Positions 1,570 to 29,873 of a stretch of DNA of 43,315 nucleotides are shown piece after piece. This DNA comes from Candidatus Desantisbacteria bacterium CG1_02_49_89 (GTDB lineage: Bacteria; Desantisbacteria; UBA1551). Each line of letters opens with the position of its first letter. Position 1 is the stretch's first letter. The DNA is taken from positions 1 through 43,315 of the forward strand of contig MNUP01000128.1 of assembly GCA_001871075.1 (NCBI GenBank). The letters are read 5' to 3'. Both the position numbers and the translations under genes were made by a program. The notes below the pieces were generated by a model. It was given only the letters and a program-made list of their open reading frames with translations, had not been told where the DNA came from and searched no databases.

Positions 1570-1637
1570 CCGAAGAACCATCCACACAGCTCTGGCTCGA
1601 AGGTCCCTGCGTTGAGCGCCGGAGGCGCTGCAGGGAC
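1570..1637 (-). repeat. Two-hairpin mini-element family 1, copy A
   Basis: Minus strand GTCCCTGCA-GCGCC..GGCGC-TCAAC-GCAGGGAC-CTTC-GAGCCA-12nt-TGGTTC-TTCGG; homologous to 2477, 7198, 12517 and 29805. Confidence 0.7.
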
Positions 1638-1848
1638 AAAATACCATTAATCCATTAATCAAACTGTTTCTAATGTCAAGACCTGACACCTTTTTTATTT
1701 AAGAAAAATTTCAAATGTAAAGATCTGTTAGAGACACCACACTAGATAACGAACTGCGGGGGTTGCCTCATTTCCGGTTTCATCGGAACTACAGGGATCG
1801 CTAAATAACCTGAATTGTTCAATTATTTAAAGGGAATAAAAAATGGTG

Positions 1849-1924
1849 CCGTGCCAGCCGAAGCATTTGCGATCTATCTGCGAAATGCAGATGCCCAGAT
1901 TGCAAAGTATTTGCGTAGGCGTGG
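1849..1924 (-). repeat. Long-hairpin mini-element family 2 (CCTACG...CTWCGG)
   Basis: 76-nt insert relative to the uninterrupted copy of the same flank at 2661-2680; homologous to 9484-9635 and 19580-19654. Confidence 0.65.
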
Positions 1925-1936
1925 GCTGTCCCTAAT

Positions 1937-2443
1937 TTATAAGAAAAACACCAGGATAGGAACCACATTGGCAGCTCCCAGGATAATAAGAAGCCAGAAA
2001 GGCAGGCTCCTGCCCCTCTGCCCTGCTTTGTCTTCAAGCTTCCCCGCGATAAACACCGCCATTGACAGCATAACGATAAAAGCCCAGACCGGCGGCGCGA
2101 GCTTTGGCTGCCATCCTGTGACCAGATATAGACCGAAAACAAACCACCCCTCTATCATTGCCAGGATACCTGTGCTTGAGTAAATATTAAGTTTTCCGGA
2201 CTGCTGGCCGCCGGGTTTGTTTTCATACTTGATCCTGCTGTATATCTCCGCGGCGATAGAAGCGGAAACTAAAATTGATACCAGGCAGAATAAAACCAGG
2301 CACAATGAATAATGGCGGGTATGCCCGTAAAAAAGCAGCAGGGCTAAAAATATGAACGAAACGATCGCCGAAGAAAAAATTAAAAATCCCGTTATCTTTT
2401 CTAACCTTTTCCCACCATTCCCGGATCCCTCGTTTTCCATCAT
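1937..2443 (-). CDS. Hypothetical membrane protein (about 5 TM segments)
   Basis: 168 aa with several hydrophobic stretches; GGAGG RBS upstream. Confidence 0.7.
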   Translation of the reverse strand: MMENEGSGNGGKRLEKITGFLIFSSAIVSFIFLALLLFYGHTRHYSLCLVLFCLVSILVSASIAAEIYSRIKYENKPGGQQSGKLNIYSSTGILAMIEGWFVFGLYLVTGWQPKLAPPVWAFIVMLSMAVFIAGKLEDKAGQRGRSLPFWLLIILGAANVVPILVFFL

Positions 2444-2476
2444 GCCGGCCTCCGTTCAGTAAACATAGTTGTTTTT

Positions 2477-2555
2477 TCGAAGAGTCATCCACTCAGTCCT
2501 GACTCGCAGACCCCCGCGTTTTGTCCCGATTCTTTTTATCGGGACTGCAGGGGGC
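2477..2555 (-). repeat. Two-hairpin mini-element family 1, copy B
   Basis: CCCCCTGCA-GTCCCGAT..ATCGGGAC-AAAAC-GCGGGGGT-CTGC-GAGTCA-12nt-TGACTC-TTCGA. Confidence 0.7.
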
Positions 2556-2973
2556 ATTGAACCTTGGAACCATTGATCCTTTTATCTATTAATCTATTAA
2601 TCAAATAAGGAGCCATCCACTAGCTTTTAACCTGAATTGTTCAATTATTTAAAGGGAATAAAAAATGGTCGCTGTCCCTATTTTTCACACATTGAGTGGG
2701 TTTGGTTGTTCTATTTTAGTCGATAGTGAAATGTCAAGACCTGACCCCAGCTACTTAATTTTATAACGTTCGACTTACGACGTTCGACGGTATTTAAAGA
2801 ATTAAGTAATGTGTCCCCGGAATCAATATGACCCCAGCTTTTCACTTGCCGATGTACGATGCACGACCCGCTAGGGCGATGCACGGTATTTAGCTAATGA
2901 AGACCTGACACCTTTTTTTTGCGCATTTATGACCCCTTAATATCCCCTTGACTAATCGTGCACTAATCGTGCA

Positions 2974-4365
2974 CTAATCGTGCACTCGATATCTCGTACT
3001 CCGCCCCATCCCAATCTGAACGATAACTTTCTTTTGTAAAAGATCGTTTAAGTCTTTATTTGCCTGTCTTAATGAAACTCCGGATATTTCGGCGTATTTT
3101 TTCCGCGAGATTTCACCTTTCGCTTTAAGGTATTCTATCGCCTTCTTTTGGCGATCATTCAGATCCAACTTATGAAGTTTTTGATCTTCGATTGCCTTGG
3201 CAAACGCCTTTCCGGGCCCCCTCAACGTAACGTTGAACCCTCCAGACAATTCTTCGAATATTGGATCGGCCAGTTTCTCCGCCCGCATGGCCTCGACTAC
3301 GCGATTCGTTCCCTTCCCCCAATGCTCGATGTATTTAATGTAGAACAGGCGTTCGGCGAGGAATCTGTTACGCGGTATCGAGAGATGCTTGCGCTTAAGC
3401 ATTGCAGGGGTAAGCGGTTTGGGCAACTCTCCCGGATTCCAAACTTCGATACGGCCGTCGTAAATCGACAAATGAGTGTCCGCATTCGACCAATAGTCCC
3501 TGTGTGCAAGTGCGTTGTTCAGAATCTCTTCCAGCGCTCTGAATGGGTATTCCCATTTATCGAACCGTTGATTGGCATCGAAGAAAACCGCGTGCTTGGT
3601 ATGTTCCGCGATGAAAGCCAGGGCTTTTTCGCGGAGATCAGGGATAGTTCCTTCCAGCACTTTCATGTCGAGATAATCGTTCCCTTCGCTACCCTTGAAC
3701 CTGGCGACACGAATCTTCGCTTGCACGAAGAATTTCTGCGGCTGTTTTCCAAAAAGTAAAATAGCCGTATTGTTCGGCTTACTGCCTTTAAGCAAGTTTA
3801 ATCGCGCAAGCGCATCTTTCACGCTCGTTTTTGCCGGTACGATCAAGCGTTTTTCATCCTTGGCTTTATCCAGAAACCATGATACCTTGGCCGCGTCGAT
3901 GTCTTTTAGCGAAGCGCCCTTGCATACCGCCTCATCAAATTGAAGTTTATCTTTATGTTTTTCGAAGATTAACCGCTCGTATTCGTCTTTGGTCATCTTG
4001 ACCGTCGAACGCCCCGCGCGCTTATATGGCCGCCCGAACGCAAGCACCAGGCGATCGTGCGATTCTTTGACCTCTATGACAACCACTTCCTTGCCGTGAA
4101 TATTCTTAACGGTTACCTTTGGGTAAAGTTTCGGATCCGTGTGCTGGGCGATTTGGTTGACCAATTTCTCGATCGTGCCCTTGCCGATTTGAACTCCGAC
4201 AACCTTGCCTTCCGGAGAGACACCGATAAATATCCGGCCGCCTTCTGTATTCGCGAAAGCGACCGCCGTCTCTACGATTGCGTCCATCTCGGATAAAGAC
4301 TGCTTCCGCTCAACCGTCGTTGATTCAGCAGAACCAATCATCTTTGATAAATTCTTCGTCTTCAT
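2974..4365 (-). CDS. AlbA_2/Schlafen DNA-binding domain + HATPase_c_4 (RecG C-terminal-like) + wHTH protein
   Basis: ESTTVERK..AFANTEGGRIFIGV (AlbA_2); EILNNALAHRDY..IEVWNPG..PRNRFLA..IEHWGKG; C-terminal HTH. Confidence 0.88.
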   Translation of the reverse strand: MKTKNLSKMIGSAESTTVERKQSLSEMDAIVETAVAFANTEGGRIFIGVSPEGKVVGVQIGKGTIEKLVNQIAQHTDPKLYPKVTVKNIHGKEVVVIEVKESHDRLVLAFGRPYKRAGRSTVKMTKDEYERLIFEKHKDKLQFDEAVCKGASLKDIDAAKVSWFLDKAKDEKRLIVPAKTSVKDALARLNLLKGSKPNNTAILLFGKQPQKFFVQAKIRVARFKGSEGNDYLDMKVLEGTIPDLREKALAFIAEHTKHAVFFDANQRFDKWEYPFRALEEILNNALAHRDYWSNADTHLSIYDGRIEVWNPGELPKPLTPAMLKRKHLSIPRNRFLAERLFYIKYIEHWGKGTNRVVEAMRAEKLADPIFEELSGGFNVTLRGPGKAFAKAIEDQKLHKLDLNDRQKKAIEYLKAKGEISRKKYAEISGVSLRQANKDLNDLLQKKVIVQIGMGRSTRYRVHD

Positions 4366-4588
4366 ATTCTTCTCAAATAGAATCCTTGATCGCCCGGCGC
4401 TCTTCTTTTAACTCTTTTTGAATTCCGCCCTTAATTTAAAGACCTTTCCGCCACTGTATTTAACCTCGGTAATTTCATGTCCTCCAGTTATCCAAAATAA
4501 ACCAGCCTGTCCCCTTTTACATTCGGTATTGACCTAATTCCGGGGACATAATACTTAATTCTTTAAATACCGTCGAGCGTCGAACGTC

Positions 4589-4705
4589 CCGCCCAACAAG
4601 ATTTCCTCCCTAAAGATTTCCACCTTTAAGATTTGCGCCCTAAATATTGGCGCATCCGCCAATTCTTAAGGCGGAGACGGACAAGGGCGGACAAGGGCGG
4701 ACAAG
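4589..4705 (+). repeat. Self-nested palindromic mini-element stack
   Basis: Three left halves CCnCC..AAGATTT, a central double hairpin, then three right halves GRCGGACAAG. Confidence 0.7.
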
Positions 4706-4891
4706 CTGTGCATCGCAAAATGCAGTCATGGTTTAAAAACTTGTCAACGTATCAGCGTGTCAACGCAACTGCAAGGTTTTTTTATTTGAAACAGTGTTAA
4801 CTCTGAGATACAGTCATTTGTTAAAAACTACTACTGGTTCCGTGGTTCTGGGTTTAAAAGTTAAACAGATTGAATAAATAGAAACAACGAA

Positions 4892-5881
4892 CTATTTTTT
4901 TAGTAGGTTTAAAACCACTTTTATCATTATATCCTTTTCCGTAAGTTTACTAGCGGCAATCATCAACGTCAAGGTAATCAACGTGTTTTCGTCTATGCGC
5001 TTACTGCCATCGAGGCACAATAAAATGTCATTCCGCTGTAAGAAATATACAAATAAAGTCGCGGCGATACGTTTATTACCATCCACAAAGCTGTGGTTCT
5101 TTGTTACAAAATATAAAAGGTGCGCGGCTTTCTCTTCGATTGTCGAATAGACATCTTTCTTGCCGAAAGTTTGGTAAATAGCCCCTATGGAGCTTTTAAA
5201 ACCGCTGTCTTTTTCCTGCCCGACAAGCGGGGAATCTTTAAACCTTACCTTTATCTCGCTTATAATGTTTTTAGCCTCTTCATACGTCAATTCATATTTT
5301 ACTTTTTGAGTTCCTGCCGGCGTCGCAAGCCTCTGATGGTCGAAATCATCTAAAATATTCAGCGCTCGTGAGTATTCTTCAATAATTCGAATAATTCCTT
5401 TAGACTCATCCGGCACATCCTCCAACGATGCAATGTTGCCCAATAAGCGCACCGCTTCCCGCAAATTGCAAATTTTTTCTGATTGCACCCGGAGCTTTTT
5501 TTCATTGAGCGTGTAACCATCCAATAGATACCGGCGCAGAACATTTGTGGCCCAAATACGAAATTGTGTTCCTTGTTTAGAATTCACGCGATAACCGACA
5601 GAAATAATCGCATCCAGACTGAAATATTCTACTTGATAGATTTTTCCGTCCGTACCAGTTGTTGCAAATTTTGCAACAACTGAATTTCTTTTTAACTCAC
5701 TTTCTTTAAATATATTATGTAAATGCCTCGATATAACGGATTTATCCCGTTCAAACAGGTCTGACATCTGGTTAAGACTTAACCAAACGGTATCCTTGAC
5801 CAGCCGCACCTCCAATCTGTTTTTGTATAAAACAACTTGTCCTCGGGAATCTTCTATCTTCATTAGCTTTTTAGGCGCCAT
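4892..5881 (-). CDS. Virulence protein RhuM / Fic-Doc fusion family protein
   Basis: RhuM motifs DTVWLSLNQMSDLF and LDAIISVGYRVNS..TQFRIWAT, plus Doc-like Fic motif HSFVDGNKRIA. Start uncertain (5893 TTG, 5881 ATG or 5863 ATG). Confidence 0.88.
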   Translation of the reverse strand: MAPKKLMKIEDSRGQVVLYKNRLEVRLVKDTVWLSLNQMSDLFERDKSVISRHLHNIFKESELKRNSVVAKFATTGTDGKIYQVEYFSLDAIISVGYRVNSKQGTQFRIWATNVLRRYLLDGYTLNEKKLRVQSEKICNLREAVRLLGNIASLEDVPDESKGIIRIIEEYSRALNILDDFDHQRLATPAGTQKVKYELTYEEAKNIISEIKVRFKDSPLVGQEKDSGFKSSIGAIYQTFGKKDVYSTIEEKAAHLLYFVTKNHSFVDGNKRIAATLFVYFLQRNDILLCLDGSKRIDENTLITLTLMIAASKLTEKDIMIKVVLNLLKK

Positions 5882-6432
5882 TTTACCCCGCAAGCTGATA
5901 ATTTTTTATTAAATAATGGGGACGGGTTCATTTGTTTATTAAAGATGATTACGGTGATTATTAAATACTGATTACAGTGATTATCAGAAGAAGATTACGG
6001 TGATTATTAAAAGATGATCTTTGCTACGCCGATCAGGTCCAGCGAGACAACATTCTTTGTGGGCCATGTCGATAAACGACGAATTCCGGTGATTACAAAA
6101 TGTCCCGATAAATCGGGACCGCTACACAACAGATTGCCGCGCCCTGCGGGCTCGCAATGACCCACCTACGCCATCCTACTTCGCTAAAGCTTCGAAGGAC
6201 AAGTTTGAGGGTTCTCCTGCAAGTACGACCAGCTCCCGCCTACGTGAATACTCAGCAAACTTATAATTTTCCTATCCTACTACGCCAAGGCTTCCGCCTG
6301 CGTTAAACCAAATGAGTCCAAGATTTTCCTATTCGGAAAGGACTCATTTGAACTCCGGCGGACAAGTCGCTCAGGTACAGGGCAGGCACCTAAACCAATT
6401 CGTCGGAATTACAGACACACTGCCTTTTCCTG

Positions 6433-6753
6433 TTATTTATCTCTTTCTTGCTTTTTCAGATACTCAATGCCTTTTTTAGTCAAACGATATTTTTGCAGAC
6501 GACTGTTTGGTTTGTCTGGGATCGTGTATTCGATCAGATCCTGCTTTAACGCCGATTTCAAGTATCGCTCTTTAAAATTTGCCCGTCCTTTTAAGCTAAT
6601 TTTTTTCTGCAATTCCTGCCGCGTCATTTTACCATGGATAATCTTCAATAAACGTATTATCTCTTCATTGACTTGGCCCGCGACTTGACCCGCGACTTGG
6701 CCTGTGGTTTGAATAGGAGCCTTTTTCGCCGAGGGTTGTTTTCGCCATATCAT
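6433..6753 (-). pseudogene. C-terminal fragment of a Fic/ATP-binding-type protein (GQVA repeats + wHTH)
   Basis: GQVAGQVAGQV linker and PDKPNSRLQKYRLT C-terminal motif; no N-terminal catalytic domain; the 5' end abuts repeat DNA. Confidence 0.6.
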
Positions 6754-6824
6754 CAGAATAAAAAATCCGTTTTCTAACCGAAACTCCGGCGGACACAGCG
6801 GGTTCAGGGCAAGCTTACGAGAAC

Positions 6825-8201
6825 TTATTTTTCGATCACTTCCCAGTGACCGCCTTTATCCGGGCCGATACGGCGAAGCAGACCTTTTTCTTTTAATTTC
6901 TTTAAGTTCCACTCAACGCCCCTGCGAGTTAATTTTGCCTTTTGCATAATTTCATTTTGAATTATTCCGGGATCTGCTTTAATTAAAGCAAGGATTTTCT
7001 CCACAGTTTTCTTTAAGAGACCTTCTTCACCTTTTCCTTTCCTCTTGAAGGTCACGATGAAATGAGTTCCTATTTCCCTGAAGTCCGCATCGGGTTCCCG
7101 CGAAAGTATGAGATTTATGCCCCTCCCCCACTTTTCGATGAAATGCACTCTGTGGAACAGCTCAGCGATAAGTTCGTTTCGGCGTGTGGATGTATTGTCC
7201 CTGTAGCCCCTTCGGGGCTTAACACAGGGATCTGCGAGCCAGAACGGGGCTGATGGCTCTTCGGAAACCATTTTTGTTTTTATGTCGGTTATAGTCAAAC
7301 CGCCGTAAAGAAGCCCCGGGTTTCTGATCTCAAGACGGTTCTTAAAGATCGCAATATTCACGGAGTCATATTCCCTGTAATCCCTGTGACAGAAGGCGTT
7401 GATTACTGCTTCCCTGAACGCTTCCCTGTCTATTTCAGGAACATCTATTCTGCGTAAACCATCGAGCTTCATTCCGATATGAATATTTTTCAGTATGTAT
7501 TCCTGCGCCTTTTCGATAAGAAAGAACGGGTCACCCTCATAATCCTGCATATCCACGGGAATCGCCGTGTCATTAGTCGCGAAAACCGCGCACCTGAGCT
7601 TTGCGTTAGGGAAGAACTGCCGCGGATCCCTGGCAAAAAGCATTACGGCCGCGTTGCGGATCTTGCCATCAGAACAAAGCCCCAGTTTTTGCAGGGAACT
7701 TTTAATATCGTCATACTTCAAACCTGCTATCTTTAAAAATGACCTTAACTTTTTCGAGCTGATATGAGAATATTTTGCCTTTTCGCAAACCAGCGTATCC
7801 CAGTTCAGCTTGTCCTTATTTTTCGCCAGAAACATCTTTTCTAATTCTCTTGCGCTTAGCTGCTTGTTTTCATCGCTAACCCTCATATATGCTTTGCCAA
7901 AAGCCAGGTAAGGTATTTCTGTCCCTTCAAATTCTATGACCGCACATCTCTTTCCGTTTATTTTTTCAGCCGCGATTTTAGGATAAATCCTGGGCTCTAC
8001 GTTGCTCGAAACCGCCTGAGAAATATCCCTGATCGTTTTTCCGCCGATTTCCTGGCCGACCACGGTGCCGTCATTCTTTATGCCGAAATATACCTTTCCT
8101 TTGGCGTGTTTATTGAGAATGGCTGAAATCGCGATGACCGCTTCTTTCAGCTCGGAAGTTGATTTCTTGAATTCCACGTTTTCGGATTCCTTTAATTGCA
8201 T
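6825..8201 (-). CDS. Second AlbA_2/Schlafen + HATPase_c_4 + wHTH protein, carrying a 25-aa in-frame insertion
   Basis: MQLKESENVEFKKS..SAILNKHAKGKVYFGI; REAVINAFCHRDY..EIRNPG..RRNELIA..IEKWGRG. Start placed at ATG 8201 because the ORF-track extension to 8477 translates repeat DNA. Confidence 0.85.
   Translation of the reverse strand: MQLKESENVEFKKSTSELKEAVIAISAILNKHAKGKVYFGIKNDGTVVGQEIGGKTIRDISQAVSSNVEPRIYPKIAAEKINGKRCAVIEFEGTEIPYLAFGKAYMRVSDENKQLSARELEKMFLAKNKDKLNWDTLVCEKAKYSHISSKKLRSFLKIAGLKYDDIKSSLQKLGLCSDGKIRNAAVMLFARDPRQFFPNAKLRCAVFATNDTAIPVDMQDYEGDPFFLIEKAQEYILKNIHIGMKLDGLRRIDVPEIDREAFREAVINAFCHRDYREYDSVNIAIFKNRLEIRNPGLLYGGLTITDIKTKMVSEEPSAPFWLADPCVKPRRGYRDNTSTRRNELIAELFHRVHFIEKWGRGINLILSREPDADFREIGTHFIVTFKRKGKGEEGLLKKTVEKILALIKADPGIIQNEIMQKAKLTRRGVEWNLKKLKEKGLLRRIGPDKGGHWEVIEK
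7198..7264 (+). repeat. Two-hairpin mini-element family 1, copy D (inside a CDS, antisense to it)
   Basis: TCCCTGTA-GCCCC-TTCG-GGGC-TTAAC-ACAGGGAT-CTGC-GAGCCA-12nt-TGGCTC-TTCGG. Confidence 0.75.
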
Positions 8202-8265
8202 ACCCGGTCCTTTTATAACCATTTTGTTGACATCAACGAAATGGTCCGCGATGCTCTGCCAAATT

Positions 8266-8342
8266 TTACGGGGCTCCCTCCTTAAAGATCGGCAGCTTGC
8301 CCGCCAACGCTTGCTGGGCGGGGGTCTTCGAAAAGGCTTGCC
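8266..8342 (+). repeat. 77-bp composite REP/mini-element, identical to 12354-12430
   Basis: Identical by visual alignment: TTACGGGGCTCCCTCCTTAAAGATC...CTTCGAAAAGGCTTGCC. Confidence 0.8.
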
Positions 8343-8499
8343 ATATCCACCCCGATGGACATCGGGGCGAGACCTCGCCCTAAAGGGGCGGGCGAAAACA
8401 AATATTACGGGGCTGAAGCCCCTACTCCGTGAAAACCAGAGGCAACTTTCTTGTTCCACCCCAGCTTGATGTGCCAAAATGGCACTTCAAAATTTGCCC

Positions 8500-8913
8500 C
8501 CTGCAGCTGCTCCGTTTTTTTAACCAGCCTTTTCCGGTTCAGCGTATAACCCTTGATCAAATGCTCTTTCAGCGTCCTGGTCGCCCAGATTCTAAATTGA
8601 GTTGCCCTGCTTGAATTAACTCTGTAACCAATTGAAATAATAGCATCGAGGTTGAAGAACTTAGTATTATAAATTTTCCCATCTTTTGCAGTATGTTCCA
8701 AAATGGAACTAACTGAATTTTCACTTAATTCTCTGCTTGCAAAAATATTCCTAAGATGTTTTGTAATGGCCGGCTTTGGGTACCGAATAGTTGAGATATT
8801 TGCTGCTGCGTAAGCCAGACAGTCTCTTCACGCAACCTGACTTCAAGGTTTGGCCCTTTTGAAGTTTTATAGATTATTATCTCGCCCTTGTTAATGGGGT
8901 CAGGTCTTGACAT
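8500..8913 (-). pseudogene. Frameshifted, truncated RhuM-family gene
   Basis: ORFs 8725-8946 (GEIIIY..ETVWLTQQQISQLFG) and 8405-8701 (NLDAIISIGYRVNS..TQFRIWAT) join by a 1-nt frameshift near 8773; the C-terminus is lost. Confidence 0.8.
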
Positions 8914-8934
8914 TTCACTCTTCCTTTTACTGAT

Positions 8935-8967
8935 AAAAAAACCCACTTGGGTTTTAAAGTGGGTATT
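8935..8967 (-). terminator. Possible intrinsic terminator
   Basis: ACCCACTT-8nt-AAGTGGGT stem followed by a T-tract on the minus strand. Confidence 0.4.
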
Positions 8968-9046
8968 TATTACATAATAAAAACCTTGCCCAGGATACCA
9001 TTAGCTTCTAATCTATAGTCTGCGTAAAACATTTCAGACCTCATTT

Positions 9047-9813
9047 AACCACGAATTATTTTACAGGGAACCCTCCACCAAAATCGGCGGGCAGGCTTAC
9101 GAGAACTTAAACTTCACCACGGAGACACAGAGTAATCTTTGGCTCATATTAAAAACCAAAGGCTACTTTTAACCACGAATTAACACGAATTTGCACGAAT
9201 TAATCTTCTGCTTGATTCTTGATACTATACAATAAAGTCTAAGAAATAAATAGTTCTATATTAATATGCGGGAATATACAATATTATATATATAAATGGC
9301 TAAATGTCAATAGAAACCACACGATTGCACACGATTTCCACAAGATAAACCACAGAGGCACGGAGAAATATTTTTGTCATATTAAAGGCCAAGAACTACT
9401 TTTAACCACGAATTAACACGAATTTGCACGAATTACAAACTGTGTAAACTTGTAAACTTTATAAACTACTTTTTTACAGGGAACCCGCCTACGCAGATAC
9501 TCCGCCAACATTAGCTTCCCGCTATTCGCGTGAATGTTGCGGATGCTTCCACCTTCGCAGTAACTCAGCAAATCCATAATTCTCCTGTTCGGAGAGGATT
9601 CGCTGATGCTACGGCGGACAAGCCGGCGGGCAGGCCCACCCCTACGCGAACCATAAATGTGCGATGAATCCGACCGCCACAAAACGCAACTTGAAGGTTG
9701 CGGCTATCCGCAAGCCTGAAGGCTTGCCCTGCGAAAACAAATAATTGGACGATTAGACGATTAAACAATCAGGGCTGAAGCCCTGAGTTACGCAAACCTA
9801 AAGGTTTGCCCTA
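9047..9813. repeat. Mosaic intergenic repeat stack (10-mer CACGAATT arrays, 9-mer GTAAACT arrays, family-2 elements, GTAG REPs)
   Basis: TTAACCACGAATTAACACGAATTTGCACGAATT at 9170 and 9402; REP hairpins at 9683-9732 and 9770-9813. Confidence 0.75.
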
Positions 9814-11907: not shown

Positions 11908-12007
11908 ATTAAAAGCCAGAGGCTACTTTTAACCACGAATTAATACGGATTTCCACGAATTACAAACTATATAACTTTGTAAACTGCTCCAAAGACTACC
12001 ACGGAAG

Positions 12008-12080
12008 CCCTCTGCTGCTCCGAATAACCCGGAGCAAAACGCGAGGACCTTCGCCCGCCAATAATCGTGGCGGGCTACGG
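12008..12080 (+). repeat. Two-hairpin mini-element family 1 variant (copy G)
   Basis: 73-nt insert relative to the empty site at 42211-42263; same stem-hairpin-AAAAC-stem-CTTC-hairpin-TACGG layout. Confidence 0.62.
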
Positions 12081-12241
12081 CACGGAAGGATGGAAGCACG
12101 GAATAATATTTGGCTTTTGCAAATGACAAATGACTGCCTTTGCAACCACACGATTACACACGATTTCCACAAGATTTTCTTCTACTTGACACTTGATACT
12201 TGACTCTTGACACTAAATTAACCACAGGTGAACACTGTTTT

Positions 12242-12484
12242 GTAGCTCAAACCTTCAGGTTTGATATCAGGGCTCCCACCTTAAAAATTGGCGGGTCTTC
12301 GAAAAGCCCTGAGTTACTCGCAAGCCTTAAGGCTTGCCCTACGAAAACAAATATTACGGGGCTCCCTCCTTAAAGATCGGCAGCTTGCCCGCCAACGCTT
12401 GCTGGGCGGGGGTCTTCGAAAAGGCTTGCCCTACGAAATCTACACCTAAGAGACCATAAATAGCAGAGCAAGCTCTGCCACTAC
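12242..12484. repeat. Cluster of GTAG/GTAA-tagged REP palindromes with nested inserts
   Basis: GTAGCTCAAACCTTCAGGTTTGA; reverse complements of GTAGGGCAAGCCTTAAGGCTTGCG and GTAGTGGCAGAGCTTGCTCTGCTA. Confidence 0.75.
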
Positions 12485-12516
12485 TTCGAAACCCCGGAAC
12501 CCGTATTAAACGATTT

Positions 12517-12590
12517 CCGGAGAGTCATTCACCCTGTTCTGACTCGTAGGTCCCTGTGTTAAGCTCCAGTTTCATCGGAGCTACAGGGAT
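12517..12590 (-). repeat. Two-hairpin mini-element family 1, copy C
   Basis: ATCCCTGTA-GCTCC..GGAGC-TTAAC-ACAGGGAC-CTAC-GAGTCA-12nt-TGACTC-TCCGG, 8 nt after the stop of the upstream CDS. Confidence 0.7.
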
Positions 12591-12598
12591 AACGTTTC

Positions 12599-15817: not shown

Positions 15818-16070
15818 AGGGGCTCCTTTGTTCATTATAGCTGTCATGAGTCATGGTTCATGAGTCATGGGTTGAATCAATTATGAGTTATGTCCCAAAG
15901 GGATCCCTTCGGGAAATTATGAATCAACAGCAAGGTATATATTGCCCGCCCCTTCGGGGCGAGGTCTCGCCCCGATGGACATCGGGGCGGATAACTCAGG
16001 GCTTCAGCCCTGAAATCAAACCTGAAGGTTTGAGTTACAGCAAACTCAGCGAACTCAGCGGCGAGATGCG

Positions 16071-21621: not shown

Positions 21622-21650
21622 TAAAAACTCCTTATTTTAAATTGCAAATG

Positions 21651-22411
21651 AAAAAAGGGGACGGGTTCATTTATTTTCCTCTTTGAACGGCCTGCCTCTT
21701 CTTCTTATCTGCATTTTTCTGCCTAAAATATTTTCTATCTTTTCTTTGAATACATCATTCCCAAAGGCTACTCCCTTATTTACTGACTCTGTAATAAGTT
21801 TCCATTCAAAATCAGGTATGCTTTCTTTAAACCATTTCTCATATTTTTTTTGCCTTTCATCTTCATTGCTACCCAAAGATAAAAACCAGGAATCAAAATC
21901 AAGAAGCGGATCTGCTTTAAAACCGATCTTGCCATTATAGCTACTCCATTTATAATCTCCGGGCAACCGCGTGATCCCCGCTCTTGCCGGATTCATTTCT
22001 ATGTATCTGGAACAAGCAAGCAGATAATTATCCATGGAAACCGGGGAGCTCCTGAATCTCCCCTCCCAAAGCGTACCGGTACGTTTATATTTTTTATTCA
22101 CATACTGAGCATATTTCTGAGCAATGGATTTAATAAATTTAGCAAGATGCTCTTTGACTAGCGGTTCAAGTAAAAAATGAACGTGGTTATTCATCAGAAC
22201 ATATGAATATAAATTCATTTCATATTCTGTTTTCGCGATTTTTATCAACCTTAAGAAATATTGAAAATCGTCATCGCAAAAAAATATGACTTGTTTATTA
22301 TTGCCTCTATGAATAATATGATATGTTACATTCGCAAGAGCACGCCTGGCATATCTTGGCATTATCTTTTTGCCTCTTTATAGTTAAATAAATGAACCCG
22401 TCCCCTTTTTT
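21651..22411. mobile_element. Y1-transposase element with perfect 26-bp terminal inverted repeats (TIRYT/RAYT-like)
   Basis: AAAAAAGGGGACGGGTTCATTTATTT at 21651-21676 and its reverse complement at 22386-22411; interior is AT-rich compared with the flanking genes. Confidence 0.8.
21667..22362 (-). CDS. HUH Y1 tyrosine transposase (IS200-like/REP-associated family)
   Basis: MPRYAR..YHIIHRGNN, YVLMNNHVHFL (HUH), GTLWEGRF, RYIEMNP, Y.WSSY, C-terminal RGRP. Confidence 0.92.
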   Translation of the reverse strand: MPRYARRALANVTYHIIHRGNNKQVIFFCDDDFQYFLRLIKIAKTEYEMNLYSYVLMNNHVHFLLEPLVKEHLAKFIKSIAQKYAQYVNKKYKRTGTLWEGRFRSSPVSMDNYLLACSRYIEMNPARAGITRLPGDYKWSSYNGKIGFKADPLLDFDSWFLSLGSNEDERQKKYEKWFKESIPDFEWKLITESVNKGVAFGNDVFKEKIENILGRKMQIRRRGRPFKEENK

Positions 22412-23297
22412 ATTTCGCCTGTTTCTGGGTCAGGTACGCGGCAAGGACGCGGTCGTACGGGACGGAGGTGTTAATTGGAACGTAATCTATCTGGCTCTCG
22501 GAACAGACTTTTTTATAGTGTTCGACAAAATCTTTCACGCGCCTGCAGTATTCGTCGCGCAGCGCCCGGGGATAGAGGAACATTTTGTCCCCGGATTCCA
22601 GGTCCTGAAGGGTCAGGGACTCGGAAAAGGAAAAATCCAGCTCCATTTTGTCCAGCACGTGGAAAATAATGCACTCGTGCTTGTTGTGCCTGAAGTGTTT
22701 CAGGGCTGACAGCACTTCGTCCTCATTGTCAAGCAGGTCTGAAATAAGTATTATAAGGGCGCGCCTTTTTATTATGTTCGCCAGGTCGTGGCAGGGTTTC
22801 GCGATGGAGCTTTTACCGGAAGACCGCAGGTCCTGCAAAGAGTTCAGTATGACCTGCAGATGGCCCGGGGTGCTGCGCGGAGGAATGATCCTGTCCAGGG
22901 AAGAGGAGAAAGGGGCAAGACCGACGGCATCCTGCTGTTTTATAAGAACGTAGGAAAGAAGCGCGGAAAGGTAACAGCCGTATTCAAGCTTGGTCTGCCC
23001 GTTTGAGGTGTAGCCCATGGACGAGCTGCGGTCCAGCAAGATATAGGCCTTAAGGTTTGTTTCTTCCTCATACTGCTTGATGTAGTAGCGGTCTGACCGG
23101 GCAAAGACCTTCCAGTCAATGCGGCGTATCTCATCACCCCAGGTGTAGGCACGGTGCTCGCTGAACTCAACGCTGGAGCCCTTGTAAGGGCTGCGGTGCA
23201 GGCCCGTGACAGTGCCTTCCACCGCCCCGCGGGGCAGGAAGGAAAGGTTTGTGAACTTGCTGATGATATTTGGGTCAAGATAACGGGAAGCGGGCAA
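22410..23297 (-). CDS. DUF58 domain-containing protein
   Basis: GLHRSPYKGSSVEFSEHRAY..GDEIRRIDWK..YEEET..LLDRSSSM; TTG start with AGGAG RBS. Confidence 0.92.
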   Translation of the reverse strand: MPASRYLDPNIISKFTNLSFLPRGAVEGTVTGLHRSPYKGSSVEFSEHRAYTWGDEIRRIDWKVFARSDRYYIKQYEEETNLKAYILLDRSSSMGYTSNGQTKLEYGCYLSALLSYVLIKQQDAVGLAPFSSSLDRIIPPRSTPGHLQVILNSLQDLRSSGKSSIAKPCHDLANIIKRRALIILISDLLDNEDEVLSALKHFRHNKHECIIFHVLDKMELDFSFSESLTLQDLESGDKMFLYPRALRDEYCRRVKDFVEHYKKVCSESQIDYVPINTSVPYDRVLAAYLTQKQAK

Positions 23298-23425
23298 GGT
23301 AACTCCTTAAAAACGTATCAACGTATCAGCGTATCAACGTGTCAGAGTAACTACAAGGATTTAATAAATAAAATCTCAAAGTTTTAAATAAATTCCTTAT
23401 GCATTTGCGTTGACACGTTGACACG

Positions 23426-24427: not shown

Positions 24428-24562
24428 TTAACCTCCGAAAATCAATTATGAGTTATGAATTATGAATTATGAGTGAAGGAATCAGGGCTTTTGCCCTGAA
24501 TTGAAATAAAAATCCTTGCTGTTGATTCATAATTCATAAATCATAATTCATAATTATATTTA

Positions 24563-25138: not shown

Positions 25139-25383
25139 AGAAGCTCCCGAAAACTAGAATAGCCACTGAGTACCACTGAGTTCACTGAGTTGCTTTGTAA
25201 ACTACGTAAACTATGTAAACTTTATAAACTGTCTTTTGACCACGGAGGCACGGTCGCCCCTACGGCGACCCGCCGATGAGGCGGGAGACTACCTTATTGA
25301 TCTTTGGCTTTAAACTAATGACAAATGACTAATGACTGCCCTTTAACCACGAATTAACACGAATTTCCACGAATTATTAACTA

Positions 25384-25612
25384 GAGCCTGGCAACTAATT
25401 CATATACCGAGGGGAAAACCATAGCAAAACATTCAATTTACCCCCATTTTAAGGCTCTTTTAGGCTGTTTTTGGGGGTAAATCTGAAGTATTAGTTGCCA
25501 CTTACCCCCATAGCCTCTCCGACGAGAACTTTTCATACACATATTTGAACACAATAGCAATTAATATATTACCGTCGGAAGATATTTTGAATTGCTGTTA
25601 GTTGCCACACTC
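25384..25612. mobile_element. 229-bp MITE/IS remnant with 15-bp imperfect TIRs and a 5-bp target duplication
   Basis: GAGCCTGGCAACTAA ... TTAGTTGCCACACTC (13/15 match), flanked by AACTA at 25379-25383 and 25613-25617. Confidence 0.65.
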
Positions 25613-25841
25613 AACTATATAAACTGCGTTAACTTTATAAACTGCATTTTGACCACGAAAACACGAAACCTTCGGTCAGCCACGGATGTTCACGGATAAA
25701 TTTTTGGCTTTAAACTAATGACGAATGATTAATGACAAAAGACTGCTTTGCAACCACGAATTAACACGAATTTCCACGAATTACAAACTTTGTAAACTTG
25801 TAAACTATGTAAACTTTATAAACTTCTTAGTAGGCTGTGGA

Positions 25842-28013: not shown

Positions 28014-28252
28014 GGTTTATTCATCGGCCATTGGCCATTGGTCATTTGTAATTTGTTAAAAACTACTACTCATAAAACAACGGGGCTAAAGCCCCTACTC
28101 CGAAAATCAAAATACGCAAACCTAAAGGTTTGCCCTACGAAATATCAGGGCTGAAGCCCTGAGTTACGATAAAAATCCTTGCTGTTGCGTTGACACTTTA
28201 ATACGCTTTTAAACAAATGACTAATGACAAATGACTAATGACTGCATTTAAA

Positions 28253-29731
28253 TTAATGGGAAAGGGCAAAAACCACGGTGTTGATGCCGAGCCTGAGGCT
28301 GTCTTCGGGCATGACCGCGAGGCTGTAAGGCCGGACCTGCTCGTCCCACACAAGGCCGTAAGGGCTGTAAACAACCGCCGTGCCGCCCTCTATGTCTATG
28401 CCTTCCAGATACGGGGACGAAAAACCGGGACTGGCAAGCTCGACTTTCTGGGTGTAGGCGACCTTTTGTATCGTGTAGAATGAATCGAATATCGAATGGG
28501 ACGTTCCAAGGGCTTTCATTTCAAAGCCGGGAAGCACCCTTTTCATCTCCCGCTTGAAAGCGATGTCAAAATCCGCGCTGCCGCAGCAGGCATTGGCGAA
28601 CAGGAAACCGCCTTTTTTCAGGTAACTGGCAAGGTTGGAGATCTCCTGGGAGGTGAACTTGAAATCGTAATGGCCGGTCATGTAAAGGAACGGGTACGAG
28701 AAAAGGTCCGCGCTGGCAAGGTCAACCTTCACGCGGCGCAGTTTCGCGTCGCTTGAAGTACTTTCCTTCATTTTCTGGATGAACCTGGAAACGGCCCCGG
28801 CGTGGGGGTCCCAGTCACCGCCGTGCATTACCTGCGCGAAAATGAACTCGCCGCCCTTTTCCCTTTCAACGTCCTCGTAAACAGGGGTTTTGGTATACTG
28901 CTGGGCTGCCTGGTGGAACGCGAGGCAGTACGCCATAAGGTTTGTTCCGAGTTTCAGCGCGTCATCCGGCTCGATAAGGAACTCGGCAGTGGGGACTATA
29001 AGCTCGTCCCACCCGGCCGAAATATCCGCTTTGCTCAGGATGACCGCGGTGCGGCAACCCACGTTTATGCCTTCAAAATTGGGAGCTGCCTGGATAGCCG
29101 GAGCATCCGCTGCAGACTGGCCGGGTTCCGGCTTGCGGTAATTCACTTTCTCGATGGTGTAATAGGAGGCGTAGATCGGATGGTCAGGAGGCAGGACCAC
29201 CATAGGCCTGTCAGGAAGTATCTTCTGCATCTCGTCCTTGAAGGACGCGGAGAAAATAACGTTGCCGCAGCAGGCGTTGCCGATTATAGTGCCGCCGTTC
29301 GCGAGGTACTGGCGCATTTTCTCTATCTCGTCCGAGCTGAAACGGAAGCGCTGGTGGCCGGTGAAATACATCACGGGAAGGACTTTGGGATCGAACGAGA
29401 ATTCCTTCAAAGACATTTCGTTGGTCGTGTAGGAAATGTTCAGCCTGGGCGAAGCGTACGCGAGAAGCTGTTTGAGATCGGCTATGGTGCCGCGCCACTG
29501 CTCGCCTGTGCCGTATTTTACCTTGGTCGCCAGTGCCAGGGGCTGGGGCGGGCGTTTCTGCTCTGAGCGCCTCATAGGGACAACGGGAAGAGGCAGAGGG
29601 GGAAATCCCTCAGCCGCGCTGACCCTCTGGGGCTTTGCCGGGGGCGGAAGGCCGTGCACGGTGGGGTTTGCGGCGTACGCCGCAGAAACCACTGAACCGA
29701 ACAGCAAAAAACAAATCACAAAATGCTTCAT
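28253..29731 (-). CDS. Exported protein with two DUF4159-like domains
   Basis: Signal peptide; duplicated P..Y.TGH..F....E...L..YL..GG....NACCG and final ..LG.N motifs; GAGG RBS before ATG 29731. Confidence 0.85.
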   Translation of the reverse strand: MKHFVICFLLFGSVVSAAYAANPTVHGLPPPAKPQRVSAAEGFPPLPLPVVPMRRSEQKRPPQPLALATKVKYGTGEQWRGTIADLKQLLAYASPRLNISYTTNEMSLKEFSFDPKVLPVMYFTGHQRFRFSSDEIEKMRQYLANGGTIIGNACCGNVIFSASFKDEMQKILPDRPMVVLPPDHPIYASYYTIEKVNYRKPEPGQSAADAPAIQAAPNFEGINVGCRTAVILSKADISAGWDELIVPTAEFLIEPDDALKLGTNLMAYCLAFHQAAQQYTKTPVYEDVEREKGGEFIFAQVMHGGDWDPHAGAVSRFIQKMKESTSSDAKLRRVKVDLASADLFSYPFLYMTGHYDFKFTSQEISNLASYLKKGGFLFANACCGSADFDIAFKREMKRVLPGFEMKALGTSHSIFDSFYTIQKVAYTQKVELASPGFSSPYLEGIDIEGGTAVVYSPYGLVWDEQVRPYSLAVMPEDSLRLGINTVVFALSH

Positions 29732-29804
29732 ACTCACCTCTCTTAAACTATGAATTTAAAAATACCGTAACAACAGAGAACACAGAGTTTTAACCACGAA
29801 CTAG

Positions 29805-29873
29805 CCCCTGCGGGTTTCTGCGAAACCATAACGCTGGGGCCTACGAACCAGAACTGGGTCGATGGCTCTCCGG
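29805..29873 (+). repeat. Two-hairpin mini-element family 1, copy F
   Basis: CCCCTGCG-GGTTTC..GAAACC-ATAAC-GCTGGGGC-CTAC-GAACCA-12nt-TGGCTC-TCCGG; deleting it restores a 10-mer array. Confidence 0.72.

What the first reader, a model, noticed from the sequence alone, without database searches (positions are those of the whole stretch)
1570..29873. Family 1: a 67-79 nt two-hairpin element with covarying stems, at least 6 copies in both orientations
Seen: consensus YCCCTGYR-[variable hairpin]-nnAAC-RCAGGGRY-CTnC-GARYCA-12nt-TGRYTC-TYCGR. Copies at 1570-1637(-), 2477-2555(-), 7198-7264(+), 12517-12590(-) and 29805-29873(+), a variant at 12008-12080(+) and a partial at 1772-1798. The inner stem changes completely (GCGCC, GTCCCGAT, GCCC, GCTCC, GGTTTC) yet always pairs; GAGCCA/TGGCTC versus GAGTCA/TGACTC covary; linker and 12-nt loop lengths are fixed. 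Removing copy F restores CACGAACTAG-CACGGATTAA-CACGGATTTA; removing copy G restores CACGGAAG-CACGGAAG. Inference: a structured ssDNA/RNA mobile unit. It does not match the ribozymes or riboswitches I know.
Basis: partly seen in the sequence, partly recalled or inferred. Interest (0 to 1): 0.85.

Follow-up and report, generated by a model that had tools for sequence, protein, structure and literature searches.

The report
Two-hairpin mobile DNA repeat family
A roughly 70-base DNA repeat that folds into two adjacent hairpins occurs about a hundred times in this uncultivated groundwater bacterium, sometimes inside other hairpin loops and once inside a gene, so it looks like a small mobile element related to the known REP-type repeats, although the enzyme that moves it is not identified.

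Summary
A fixed pattern finds 5 copies in the window against 0.00 expected. A covariance model finds 109 matches in the 2.48-Mb genome.

The fold is a long bulged hairpin (P1+P2, bulge YAAC) stacked on a second hairpin (2-bp P4, 3x3 loop UNC/UNC, 6-bp P3, 12-nt loop). Of 21 pairs, 17 show compensatory changes and 96% of cells pair, beyond all 500 shuffles.

Evidence for mobility:
- Copies sit inside the loops or bulge of other copies. In 4 cases, removing exactly the helix-bounded unit restores a 12-nt host loop.
- One copy adds 25 residues to a conserved protein; 11 of 11 homologs lack them.
- Near-identical copies have unrelated flanks.

There is no target duplication, no terminal inverted repeat and no Rfam hit. 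No transposase gene lies within 1 kb of a copy.

My best reading is a REP/BIME-like non-autonomous element that acts as folded single-stranded DNA, possibly moved by one of the genome's Y1 (RAYT/TIRYT-like) enzymes. That last step is inferred. I rate it a new variant of a known kind.

The parts
1570..1637 (-). Full copy A. P1 TCCCTGC/GCAGGGA, P2 AGCGCC/GGCGCT, P3 GAGCCA/TGGTTC.
   Evidence: R1 80.6 bits. The ssDNA fold gives both hairpins, z -1.98. Sequence read.
2477..2554 (-). Full copy B, with a long P2 (GTCCCGAT/ATCGGGAC) and P4 written TC/GA. It lies 34 nt upstream, on the same strand, of the 168-aa ORF 1937-2443.
   Evidence: R1 70.5 bits. Sequence. ORF list.
7198..7264 (+). Full copy C. 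It lies antisense inside the AlbA_2/HATPase_c_4/HTH_24 gene (called product 458 aa, inside ORF 6825-8477, minus strand).
   Evidence: R1 82.9 bits. Pfam domains on both sides of it. Translation.
7185..7259 (+). The 75 nt that are extra relative to homologous genes. They comprise 13 nt (TGTGGATGTATTG, resembling the loop end plus TG of another copy, followed by TATTG) and copy C without its last five bases. The final TTCGG (7260-7264) coincides with the conserved Ser-Glu codons of the host gene.
   Evidence: A 25-residue insert between MVSE and RRNELIAELF is absent in 11 of 11 aligned homologs. Mapped to codons. The same ...GGATG-TATTG-TCCCTG junction occurs in L087, and a similar one in C135.
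12517..12590 (-). Full copy D, starting 9 nt downstream of the stop of the 1082-aa ORF 12599-15847.
   Evidence: R1 82.4 bits. ssDNA fold z -3.25. Sequence.
29805..29873 (+). Full copy E (GGTTTC/GAAACC subfamily). It lies between tandem CACGRAWW words, in the spacer between the DUF4159 gene and the 2-oxoacid dehydrogenase E2 gene.
   Evidence: R1 69.2 bits. ssDNA fold z -3.85. Sequence. Pfam.
12008..12080 (+). Variant copy. The first domain and the YC-TNC...TNC-GR frame are the same, but P3 is replaced by the hairpin CCCGCC-N9-GGCGGG.
   Evidence: R1 35 bits. First-domain model R2 41.2 bits. ssDNA fold z -4.80.
1771..1798 (-). Truncated copy holding only the P1 5' strand and a complete P2 hairpin.
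   Evidence: Read directly. Not reported by R1 or R2.

Best explanation
Family 1 is a non-autonomous, structure-defined mobile DNA repeat of the REP/BIME kind.

**The unit.** It is 67-79 nt and runs exactly from the foot of one helix to the foot of another.
- A long hairpin (7-bp P1, a variable P2 stacked on it, and a conserved 4-nt bulge YAAC) directly abuts a second hairpin.
- The second hairpin has a 2-bp P4, a 3x3 internal loop with invariant U and C, a 6-bp P3 closed by invariant C-G and A-U, and a 12-nt loop GARCNRRGYNRA.
- In the folded single strand the two ends of the unit therefore lie side by side.

**Proposed mechanism.**
- Shown: copies have spread to about 100 places in the genome.
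- Shown: only variants that keep the fold have been propagated.
- Shown: copies land without target duplication, often in the unpaired loops or bulge of other folded repeats, at the apex of palindromes, or between units of short tandem repeats.
- Inferred: the active form is the folded single strand of DNA exposed at the replication fork.
- Inferred: a single-strand-specific nuclease/ligase, most plausibly one of the genome's Y1 HUH enzymes (RAYT/TIRYT-like), cuts at the helix feet and rejoins.
- Inferred: the conserved unpaired bases are that enzyme's recognition marks.
For: **Copy number and fold.**
- 109 R1 matches at E <= 0.001 in the 2.48-Mb genome.
- 17 of 21 pairs show compensatory changes and 96% of cells pair.
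- Median pairwise identity is only 0.67, yet the fold is kept.

**Unit boundaries.**
- For 4 nested copies (C71 twice, in a duplicated locus; C84; C119), removing exactly the P1-foot to P4-foot unit restores a host second domain with a 12-nt loop.
- Two copies abut head to tail with no spacer at C135.

**Targets are unpaired or apical.**
- Inserts lie in P3 loops, P2 loops and the bulge of host copies.
- 9 of 76 copies have 5 or more Watson-Crick pairs directly flanking them, against 1.7% in a shuffled-partner control.
- 25 of 76 share a 6-mer across the element, against 12.5% at random non-ORF sites.

**Gene insertion.** 11 of 11 homologs lack the 25 residues.

**Dispersal rather than segmental duplication.** Pairs at 96-99% identity have flank identities near 0.4-0.6.

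**Strand.** The sense strand lies on the G-rich strand in 51 of 76 copies (p 0.004). After merging copies less than 500 nt apart the count is 44 of 67 loci (p 0.014). This is the direction expected if the sense strand folds on the lagging-strand template.

**REP-like marks.**
- On the minus strand both hairpins are preceded by GNAG, with G, A and G nearly invariant (GTAG in 35 and 38 of 96). CT dinucleotides flank P3.
- TnpA-REP cuts at CT beside a REP and uses GTAG, chiefly its last two bases, like a guide (PMC8266576, passages read).

**Candidate enzymes.**
- The genome has 10 Y1_Tnp matches, about 8 of them RAYT/TIRYT-like.
- A 71-nt hairpin element derived from the IS200-type copy is present in this genome but absent in a near-identical strain, so single-strand transposition has occurred recently in this population.
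Against: - No enzyme is linked to the family. 0 of 10 Y1 matches has an R1 or R2 hit within 1 kb. Each RAYT/TIRYT-like gene is flanked by its own, different inverted repeats or REP arrays.
- No presence/absence allele of family 1 was found. The 5 indels among strains that are at least 97% identical are all other things. The laid contigs show no listed joint that skips a copy.
- The orientation bias is modest (about 2:1). It cannot be separated from co-orientation with genes (33 same, 18 opposite, p 0.049).
- G-T and A-C mismatches are balanced: 28 against 21 once the terminal pair is set aside. This gives no strand information.
- The tag is GNAG rather than GTAG, and part of it is paired.
- The gene insertion is not a clean unit. 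It is 8 nt longer than the copy, carries a fragment of another copy, and shares TTCGG with the target. This fits template switching or repair as well as it fits transposition.
- Detection of nested copies favours insertions that leave the host recognisable.
Confidence: 0.6

Rival explanations
1. The copies spread without a dedicated transposase. Hairpin-rich DNA stalls replication or is nicked in extruded loops. Repair or template switching at microhomologies then copies a folded repeat from elsewhere into the break. Structure is kept because only folded donors and acceptors take part.
For: - The gene insertion has a 5-nt overlap (TTCGG) with the target at one junction and carries 13 nt of a neighbouring copy at the other.
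- Hairpin modules are swapped between families. CCCGCC-N9-GGCGGG replaces P3 in the variant, P2 in some copies, and the whole first domain in L063, L092 and L098.
- Insertion points within host loops vary: after loop position 3-4, after position 8, or inside the stem.
- No linked enzyme was found.
Against: - In 4 nested copies the inserted length equals the helix-bounded unit exactly. An end-defining enzyme explains this more simply.
- Unpaired bases (UNC/UNC, YAAC, loop positions 1, 2, 4, 8 and 12) are near invariant across copies that are otherwise about 67% identical. This points to sequence-specific recognition.
Confidence: 0.15
2. The element is a functional RNA made from one strand, for example a cis-acting stability or processing element, or an undescribed self-cleaving ribozyme. 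It has been multiplied because it is useful, or because it rides on an RNA-based mobile process.
For: - Strong covariation, together with conserved internal loop, bulge and apical loop, recalls catalytic or protein-binding RNAs.
- There is a slight excess of copies co-oriented with the flanking genes: 33 against 18.
- Copy B sits just upstream of an ORF and copy D just downstream of one.
Against: - There is no Rfam 15 match. The window scan at gathering scores gave 0. The scan of 1400-2700, which holds two copies, gave nothing on them at E up to 10.
- Both orientations occur relative to genes, and the spread over intergenic classes equals the background.
- G-U is not favoured over A-C: 28 against 21.
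- There is no covariation within the 12-nt loop or between the loops.
- Copies nest inside one another and inside a coding gene antisense to it.
- The genome has only one RVT_1 match.
Confidence: 0.1
3. It is a gene-less derivative (PATE/MITE) of an IS200/IS605 insertion sequence and is moved by that element's TnpA.
For: - The genome holds one classical 151-aa IS200-type TnpA (C83, E 5.9e-40), flanked by hairpins.
- Family 1 has no target duplication.
- It shows an orientation bias with respect to GC skew.
Against: - The hairpins of the C83 element (CCCCGCGG-CTTG-CCGCGGGG) are unrelated to P1/P2 or P3.
- That element's real miniature derivative is a different 71-nt element.
- The bases 5' of family 1 are not a constant tetra- or pentanucleotide.
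- The two end hairpins differ from each other.
- No copy with a gene between the two domains was found.
Confidence: 0.07
4. It is a recognition repeat (SRM/NTS-like) of one of the genome's small GIY-YIG single-strand nucleases (Ssn family).
For: - There are 7 stand-alone GIY-YIG genes of 82-115 aa in the genome.
- Ssn enzymes act on hairpin repeats present in hundreds of copies (PMC11893778; abstract and sections 6, 7 and 17 read).
Against: - 0 of 96 unique copies, taken with 10-nt flanks, match the published SRM search sequence on either strand.
- None of the 7 genes is flanked by family 1. At least three of the seven have tRNA-like sequence in their flanks.
Confidence: 0.04

Closest known systems
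GTAG-tagged REPs and their dimers (BIMEs), with RAYT/TnpA-REP Y1 enzymes. Sources: Di Nocera et al. 2013, PMC3733652 (abstract and sections 5 and 16 read); Corneloup et al. 2021, PMC8266576 (passages read).
   Same: - High-copy, mostly extragenic hairpin repeats in both orientations, occurring singly, in pairs and in clusters.
- Subfamilies with complementary stem changes.
- Occasional copies inside genes.
- A G-N-A-G motif 5' of the hairpins on one strand, with CT dinucleotides beside them.
- Several families and several Y1 genes coexist in one genome. Some Y1 genes are flanked by unrelated TIRs, as described for TIRYTs.
   Different: - The unit is a fixed composite of two unlike hairpins in tandem, with a bulge, a 3x3 internal loop and a conserved 12-nt loop. 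It is not a 20-40-bp palindrome or an inverted pair.
- The tag is GNAG (GTAG in only about 37-40% of copies) and is partly base-paired.
- No Y1 gene is flanked by it.
- It nests in loops of other repeats.
REPINs (Bertels and Rainey 2011, PMC3116915; abstract and passages read).
   Same: - About 70-100-nt non-autonomous units predicted to fold in ssDNA.
- Compensatory changes keep the hairpin.
- The replicative unit is larger than a single palindrome.
   Different: - A REPIN is two inverted copies of one REP forming a single long hairpin, and it lies next to its RAYT.
- Family 1 has two different hairpins in direct order and no adjacent RAYT.
IS200/IS605 elements and their miniature derivatives (single-strand transposition by Y1 TnpA). 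As summarised in PMC8266576 (passages read); the rest is from my own knowledge.
   Same: - Folded subterminal hairpins.
- No target duplication.
- Strand bias relative to replication.
- Ends brought together for excision.
   Different: - Those elements insert 3' of a fixed 4-5-nt target that pairs with a guide.
- Their two end hairpins are alike.
- Here the flanks vary and the hairpins differ.
Small dispersed repeats SDR4-6 of Nostoc (Elhai et al. 2008) and double-hairpin elements of fungal mitochondria. Both are recalled from memory and named in earlier notes of this scan. The Elhai paper is not held in the library.
   Same: - Very small repeats that nest in one another, in hairpin contexts and among short tandem repeats.
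- Double-hairpin elements also occur inside genes.
   Different: - The sequences are unrelated and the host lineages differ.
- I could not read these papers, so the comparison is a lead and not a test.

Membership tests
GTAG-tagged REP / BIME (REPtron) | Small (20-40 bp) palindromic unit in high copy number, mostly extragenic. | tested here: inconclusive
   High copy number and extragenic location are met. There are 109 matches, and only 1 of 76 parsed copies lies in a real gene. The conserved unit, however, is a 67-79-nt composite of two unlike hairpins.
GTAG-tagged REP / BIME (REPtron) | Unpaired GTAG tag (or a mild variant) at one end of the hairpin. | tested here: inconclusive
   Minus strand: GNAG lies before both hairpins, reading GTAG in 35 of 96 and 38 of 96, and otherwise mostly GAAG, GCAG or GGAG. 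Plus strand: GCAG or GTAG lies before P2 in 50 of 96. Part of each tag is base-paired.
GTAG-tagged REP / BIME (REPtron) | A RAYT gene flanked by the same repeats. | tested here: not met
   0 of 10 Y1_Tnp matches has an R1 or R2 hit within 1 kb; the nearest is 2.0 kb away. Their flanks are other inverted repeats or REP arrays.
GTAG-tagged REP / BIME (REPtron) | Cleavage of the single-stranded repeat at CT by the cognate Y1 enzyme. | not testable with these tools
   Needs protein and oligonucleotide assays (CST assay of PMC8266576).
REPIN | Two inverted copies of one REP that together form one long hairpin. | tested here: not met
   The two domains are unlike and in direct order. The consensus fold is two adjacent hairpins.
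IS200/IS605-derived miniature element | End hairpins like those of a resident IS, and a constant 4-5-nt target 5' of the left end. | tested here: not met
   The hairpins of the C83 IS are unrelated. The 5' flanks vary...CCGA, TTAA, TTTC, TTTG, GTTA, GAGT and others.
IS200/IS605-derived miniature element | No target-site duplication, and orientation tied to replication direction. | tested here: inconclusive
   There is no duplication. The bias is 51:25, or 44:23 by locus, much weaker than I recall for IS608 or ISDra2.
Classical MITE (DDE transposon derivative) | Terminal inverted repeats and a target-site duplication. | tested here: not met
   The ends (YCCCTG... and ...CTNCGG) are not inverted repeats of each other. 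No duplication is seen in 76 copies.
Ssn-related motif (SRM/NTS) | Match to the SRM search sequence HGTCWY...RNCYNB, and an ssn gene flanked by the repeats. | tested here: not met
   0 of 96 copies match. The 7 small GIY-YIG genes are not flanked by family 1.
Any Rfam 15 RNA family (including known self-cleaving ribozymes) | Covariance-model match. | tested here: not met
   0 matches at gathering scores in the window. In 1400-2700, which holds two copies, the 4 matches at E up to 10 all lie off the copies.

The most novel reading that the evidence does not exclude
Family 1 may exemplify an undescribed class of structure-addressed single-strand mobile elements. The ends of such an element would be set by two coaxially stacked helix feet, not by sequence repeats. 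It would integrate, without duplication, into whatever nucleotides are unpaired in other folded DNA: hairpin loops, bulges and slipped tandem repeats. It would be moved by an enzyme that reads shape plus a few unpaired bases. This would also explain the Russian-doll repeat nests and the hairpin insertions in tRNA-like loops noted elsewhere in this genome and in other groundwater bacteria.
Probability: 0.22. Interest if true: 0.75.

Novelty: new variant of a known kind. Interest (0 to 1): 0.5.

Why it matters
How REP-type repeats spread is still unsettled. Most known families are simple palindromes that give little purchase on the question.

This family offers three things:
- a precisely bounded, richly covarying unit;
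- conserved unpaired bases that can be mutated;
- natural nested insertions that mark where it lands.

It lies in a genome with many candidate single-strand enzymes (about 9 Y1 and 7 small GIY-YIG genes). That gives a concrete substrate set for pairing repeats with enzymes.

It also matters for annotation. The element fragments assemblies: contigs of public runs end inside copies. It adds 25 residues to a conserved protein. It could also be mistaken for an RNA gene.

Tried and rejected
**Searches that found nothing**
- Rfam at gathering scores on the window, and at E up to 10 on 1400-2700: nothing on the copies.
- blastn of copy D against plasmids and phages: no match.
- Pattern scan of viral contigs: 0.
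- Pattern scan of 185,579 species genomes: 1 hit, in a Lysobacterales MAG, inside GC-rich sequence without the first domain. About 4 such hits are expected by chance by my own estimate.

**Distribution in relatives**
- R1 on 40 further held genomes (the tool's 'relatives' sample: 1 in the same order, 39 sharing only the domain): only one weak match, 32 bits, in the single genome of the same order.
- The first-domain model R2 finds 3 weak matches there, one of which was in the seed.

**Empty sites**
- In 80-93% related metagenomic species the intergenic DNA does not align, so there are no clean empty sites.
- Among strains at least 97% identical, the 5 indels are other elements, a tandem duplication and a coding repeat.

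**Sequencing runs**
- No RNA holder is listed.
- Contigs of 4 DNA runs were laid on 1400-13000. No listed joint skips a copy, and contigs break inside copies. 86 further joints were not shown.

**Tests on the element itself**
- Autonomous version: no first domain followed 150-5000 nt later by a lone second domain with a gene between them. The 5 candidates are variant copies or chance.
- Pseudoknot or loop pairing: mutual information shows only the four helices. Loop positions 3 and 9 vary independently.
- Target duplication: none.
- Short-tandem-repeat context: 22 of 76 against 29% at random non-ORF sites, so not enriched.
- G-U versus A-C asymmetry: none in the structure-blind alignment. My regex parse gave 57 against 31 but is biased, and I discard it.

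**Genes and papers**
- TnpB (PF07282): 0 matches. RVT_1: 1 match.
- Y1 homologs in the 80 metagenome loci: only the two same-strain copies.
- Elhai 2008 could not be fetched by DOI, and the title search listed only papers that cite it.
- A library search for 'Desantisbacteria' listed the first 10 of 27 papers. None of these deals with repeats, judging by title and abstract.
- Supplementary files of the REP papers were not opened. They may list further tagged families.


Full report
**1. Is it there?**

Yes. Reading the window at the stated places shows the five full copies, the variant and the partial. A 37-nt IUPAC pattern for the second half of the element hits exactly those five copies, and 100 dinucleotide shuffles gave none.

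A profile built from the five copies finds 136 hits at E < 1 in the window's own genome. That genome is 2.48 Mb in 150 contigs, with 48.9% G+C. Of these hits, 76 are near full length. A covariance model built from 45 diverse copies (R1) reports 109 matches at E <= 0.001; 150 of 769 first-look candidates were scored. Six of these matches lie in the window, and there is no seventh.

**2. Anatomy**

On 45 copies RNAalifold and my own pair count agree on four helices.
- **P1.** Seven pairs, YCCCTGY with RCAGGGR.
- **P2.** Stacked directly on P1. It is variable in sequence and length, and all six counted pairs show changes on both sides.
- **Bulge.** A 4-nt bulge YAAC lies on the 3' side between P2 and P1.
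- **P4.** It follows with no linker. It has two pairs (YC with GR). Its outer pair reads CG 36, UA 7, UG 2, and one copy changes both pairs to TT/AA.
- **Internal loop.** A 3x3 internal loop T-N-C / T-N-C, in which both T's and the 3' C are invariant and the 5' C is at least 90% conserved in the 45 copies.
- **P3.** Six pairs. Its second pair alone reads AU 24, GC 16, CG 5. The last two pairs, C-G and A-U, are invariant.
- **Apical loop.** 12 nt in 94 of 96 unique copies, with consensus G-A-R-C-N-R-R-G-Y-N-R-A.

Overall, 96.0% of 945 cells pair, 17 of 21 pairs have compensatory changes (139 cells), and 0 of 500 shuffles reach these values. Sliding the partners by 1-3 columns drops pairing to 31-51%.

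Mutual information over 96 unique copies shows the helices and nothing else. There is no pairing inside the 12-nt loop and none between loop, bulge and flanks. Each window copy, folded alone as ssDNA, gives z-scores from -1.98 to -4.80. Most give the two-hairpin fold as the minimum-energy structure.

One consequence of the fold is that the first and last nucleotides of the unit sit side by side at the junction of P1 and P4.

**3. Distribution**

The lineage is poorly sampled. Of the 40 other held genomes the tool returned as relatives, only one is in the same order. It has one weak R1 match and three weak matches to a first-domain model, one of which I had put in the seed.
- The pattern is absent from viral contigs.
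- Among 185,579 species genomes it gives a single hit that lacks the first domain.
R1 finds 123 matches in the 80 loci returned.

By megablast, most of those loci are the same organism at 99-100% identity. Eight loci have no megablast match. About a dozen others match at only 80-94%, or match only over short repeats. They carry bona fide copies with further compensatory variants, for example P4 written CT/AG or TC/GA. The family therefore belongs to a small clade of related groundwater bacteria (habitat). I did not check that label.

**4. Signs of mobility**

(a) *Nesting.* Several copies sit inside other copies, always in the same orientation as the host.
- For four of them (C71 twice, in a duplicated locus; C84; C119), deleting exactly the unit from the P1 foot to the P4 foot restores a host second domain with a 12-nt loop.
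- A fifth needs five more bases at its 5' side.
- Other inserts lie in P2 loops (C83, C19) and, in a related species, in the bulge of a host copy inside a three-level nest (L087).

(b) *Palindrome apices.* 9 of 76 copies are directly flanked by 5 or more Watson-Crick pairs, typically ...CCGA^ ^TCGG.... A control that pairs flanks from different copies gives 1.7%.

(c) *Repeat units on both sides.* In 25 of 76 copies the two flanks share a 6-mer, against 12.5% at random non-ORF sites. The copy thus often sits between units of the short tandem repeats that fill this genome's spacers. Such repeats are no commoner next to copies (22 of 76) than elsewhere (29%).

(d) *A gene insertion.* Copy C lies antisense in a gene for an AlbA_2/HATPase_c_4/HTH protein. 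Aligned with 11 homologs of 61-69% identity, the protein has 25 extra residues between the invariant MVSE and RRNELIAELF. None of the 11 has them.

At the DNA level the extra 75 nt are 7185-7259:
- 13 nt that look like the loop end plus TG of another copy, followed by TATTG;
- then copy C up to its P3.

The copy's last five bases, TTCGG, coincide with the conserved Ser-Glu codons. The same ...GGATG-TATTG-TCCCTG junction occurs in a nest in L087, and a similar one in C135. The donor was therefore probably a nested copy, and the event was not a clean unit insertion.

(e) *Dispersal.* Median pairwise identity of the 76 parsed copies is 0.67, and the median to the nearest neighbour is 0.89. Only 18 of 2850 pairs reach 95%. 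Several of these have unrelated flanks, for example 97% identity with flank identities of 0.44. The family is old and diverse, and it spread copy by copy rather than by segmental duplication.

(f) *Tandem copies.* At C135, two complete copies abut head to tail with no spacer. A third is cut by an assembly gap.

**5. What argues for DNA rather than RNA**
- Copies are spread over tandem, convergent and divergent spacers in the same proportions as the spacer DNA itself (51, 9 and 6, against 227, 27 and 24 kb).
- In tandem spacers, 33 point with the genes and 18 against.
- In the structure-blind alignment of 74 unique own copies, G-T and A-C mismatches number 29 and 42. They number 28 and 21 once the often unpaired terminal pair is set aside. 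A working RNA would be expected to favour G-U.
- No Rfam family matches.
- There is a strand signal of another kind. GC skew is strong in this genome (median absolute skew 0.109 per 10 kb). The sense strand of the element lies on the G-rich strand in 51 of 76 copies (p 0.004), or in 44 of 67 loci after merging neighbours (p 0.014).
- That is the direction expected if the sense strand folds while it is the single-stranded lagging-strand template. It is confounded with gene orientation.

**6. Who moves it?**

This is unknown.
- The genome has 10 Y1_Tnp matches. One is a classical 151-aa IS200-type TnpA with its own end hairpins. About eight are longer RAYT/TIRYT-like genes.
- Each of these is flanked by its own repeats: arrays of GTAACTCAAACC-type REPs at C23, another array at C111, and inverted repeats containing GGGGAC or GGGACAG at C100, C13, C38 and C114. 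This is the arrangement described for REPtrons and TIRtrons (PMC3733652, section 16).
- None has a family 1 match within 1 kb.
- The only hint is a first-domain-like hairpin with the same P1 (TCCCTGC/GCAGGGA) between the inverted repeat and the start codon of the C13 gene.
- Seven small GIY-YIG genes exist. At least three of them have tRNA-like sequence in their flanks and none is flanked by family 1. No copy matches the published Ssn motif (0 of 96).
- There is one RVT_1 match and no TnpB match.
- A search for a long version with a gene between the two domains found none.
- Single-strand transposition is nevertheless live in this population. A 71-nt element carrying the IS200-type hairpin is present in this genome and absent in a 99.9% identical metagenomic contig. 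A different 61-nt two-hairpin element shows the reverse.

**7. Comparison with what is known**

Read on the minus strand, both hairpins are preceded by G-N-A-G. It reads GTAG in 35 and 38 of 96 copies, with G, A and G nearly fixed. On the plus strand, P2 is preceded by GCAG or GTAG in 50 of 96, and CT dinucleotides flank P3.

In the REP systems studied, the Y1 enzyme cuts single-stranded REPs at CT beside the hairpin. It uses GTAG, above all its last two bases, in the manner of an IS200/IS605 guide. Bulges or loop bases can be essential (PMC8266576, passages read). Family 1 therefore works like a REP dimer in outline.

It fails the membership tests that I could run:
- no cognate RAYT next to it;
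- not an inverted pair (REPIN);
- the tag is degenerate and partly paired;
- no constant target (IS200/IS605);
- no terminal inverted repeats or duplication (classical MITE);
- no SRM match (Ssn).

The hairpins are also modular. The hairpin CCCGCC-N9-GGCGGG matches 232 times when both strands are counted, so roughly half that many sites. It replaces P3 in the variant at 12008-12080, P2 in other copies, and the whole first domain in three metagenomic loci. The frame YC-TNC...TNC-GR stays in every case.

**8. Verdict**

This is a real, strongly structured, lineage-specific repeat family. It is best read as a non-autonomous mobile DNA element of the REP/BIME kind that acts as folded single-stranded DNA. 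I give that reading a confidence of 0.6.
- The link to a Y1 enzyme is inference.
- Transposase-free copying by template switching or loop repair (0.15) and an RNA function (0.1) are not excluded.
- It is a new variant of a known kind.
- The exact helix-bounded unit and the preference for unpaired targets are the unusual features worth testing.
From their spacing, these are probably my variant matches on C47. That note reached a similar reading.

Noticed in passing
window 21667-22362 (-), with inverted repeats at about 21651-21675 and 22386-22413: A 231-aa Y1 HUH gene (PF01797, E 1.6e-15) is bracketed by perfect inverted repeats of about 25 nt containing GGGGACGGGTTC. This is the 'TIRYT' arrangement of Di Nocera 2013. 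The relaxed word GGGGACGG[GT]T[CT] occurs 31 times in the genome.
   Followed up: partly
window 12230-12480: At least two other hairpin repeat families are packed between genes. One includes GTAGCTCAAACCTTCAGGTTTGA, which resembles the REPs that flank the two RAYT genes on contig C23. Another is CCCGCC...GGCGGG followed by GGTCTTCGAAAAG.
   Followed up: partly
window 11930-12200 and 29780-29980, and many spacers genome-wide: Spacers are filled with degenerate 7-10-nt tandem words such as CACGRATT, TTGACAC and TGTAAAC. 29% of random non-ORF sites have such a repeat within 30 nt.
   Followed up: partly
G000:C123:19867-19937 compared with L136: A 71-nt element carrying the hairpin of the genome's IS200-type insertion sequence is present here and absent in a near-identical metagenomic contig. 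This is a recent single-strand-type insertion after ...TATTTAG.
   Followed up: partly
L133:4771-4831 compared with G000:C124 at about 2860: A different 61-nt two-hairpin element is present in the metagenomic strain and absent here. It is inserted among GTTGAAAGTT tandem words.
   Followed up: no
G000:C135:45089-45260: A head-to-tail array of family 1 copies with no spacer runs into a stretch of N. The assembly probably collapsed further tandem copies.
   Followed up: no
G000 contigs C122, C81, C55, C47, C74, C142: There are seven stand-alone GIY-YIG genes of 82-115 aa. In at least three cases tRNA-like sequence lies in the flanks.
   Followed up: partly
G000:C13, about 50-90 nt upstream of the Y1 gene 6573-7283 (-): A solitary hairpin has the same P1 as family 1 (TCCCTGC/GCAGGGA) and a bulge AGAC. 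It lies between the gene's inverted repeat and its start codon. It is the only physical hint of a link between a Y1 gene and this family.
   Followed up: no
G000:C71:17660-17740 compared with L113: A 74-nt unit made of a long palindrome (GACCCCTGCTA...TAAGCTGCTGGGGTC) is tandemly duplicated here and single in a near-identical strain. The same palindrome hosts family 1 copies at its apex at other loci.
   Followed up: no
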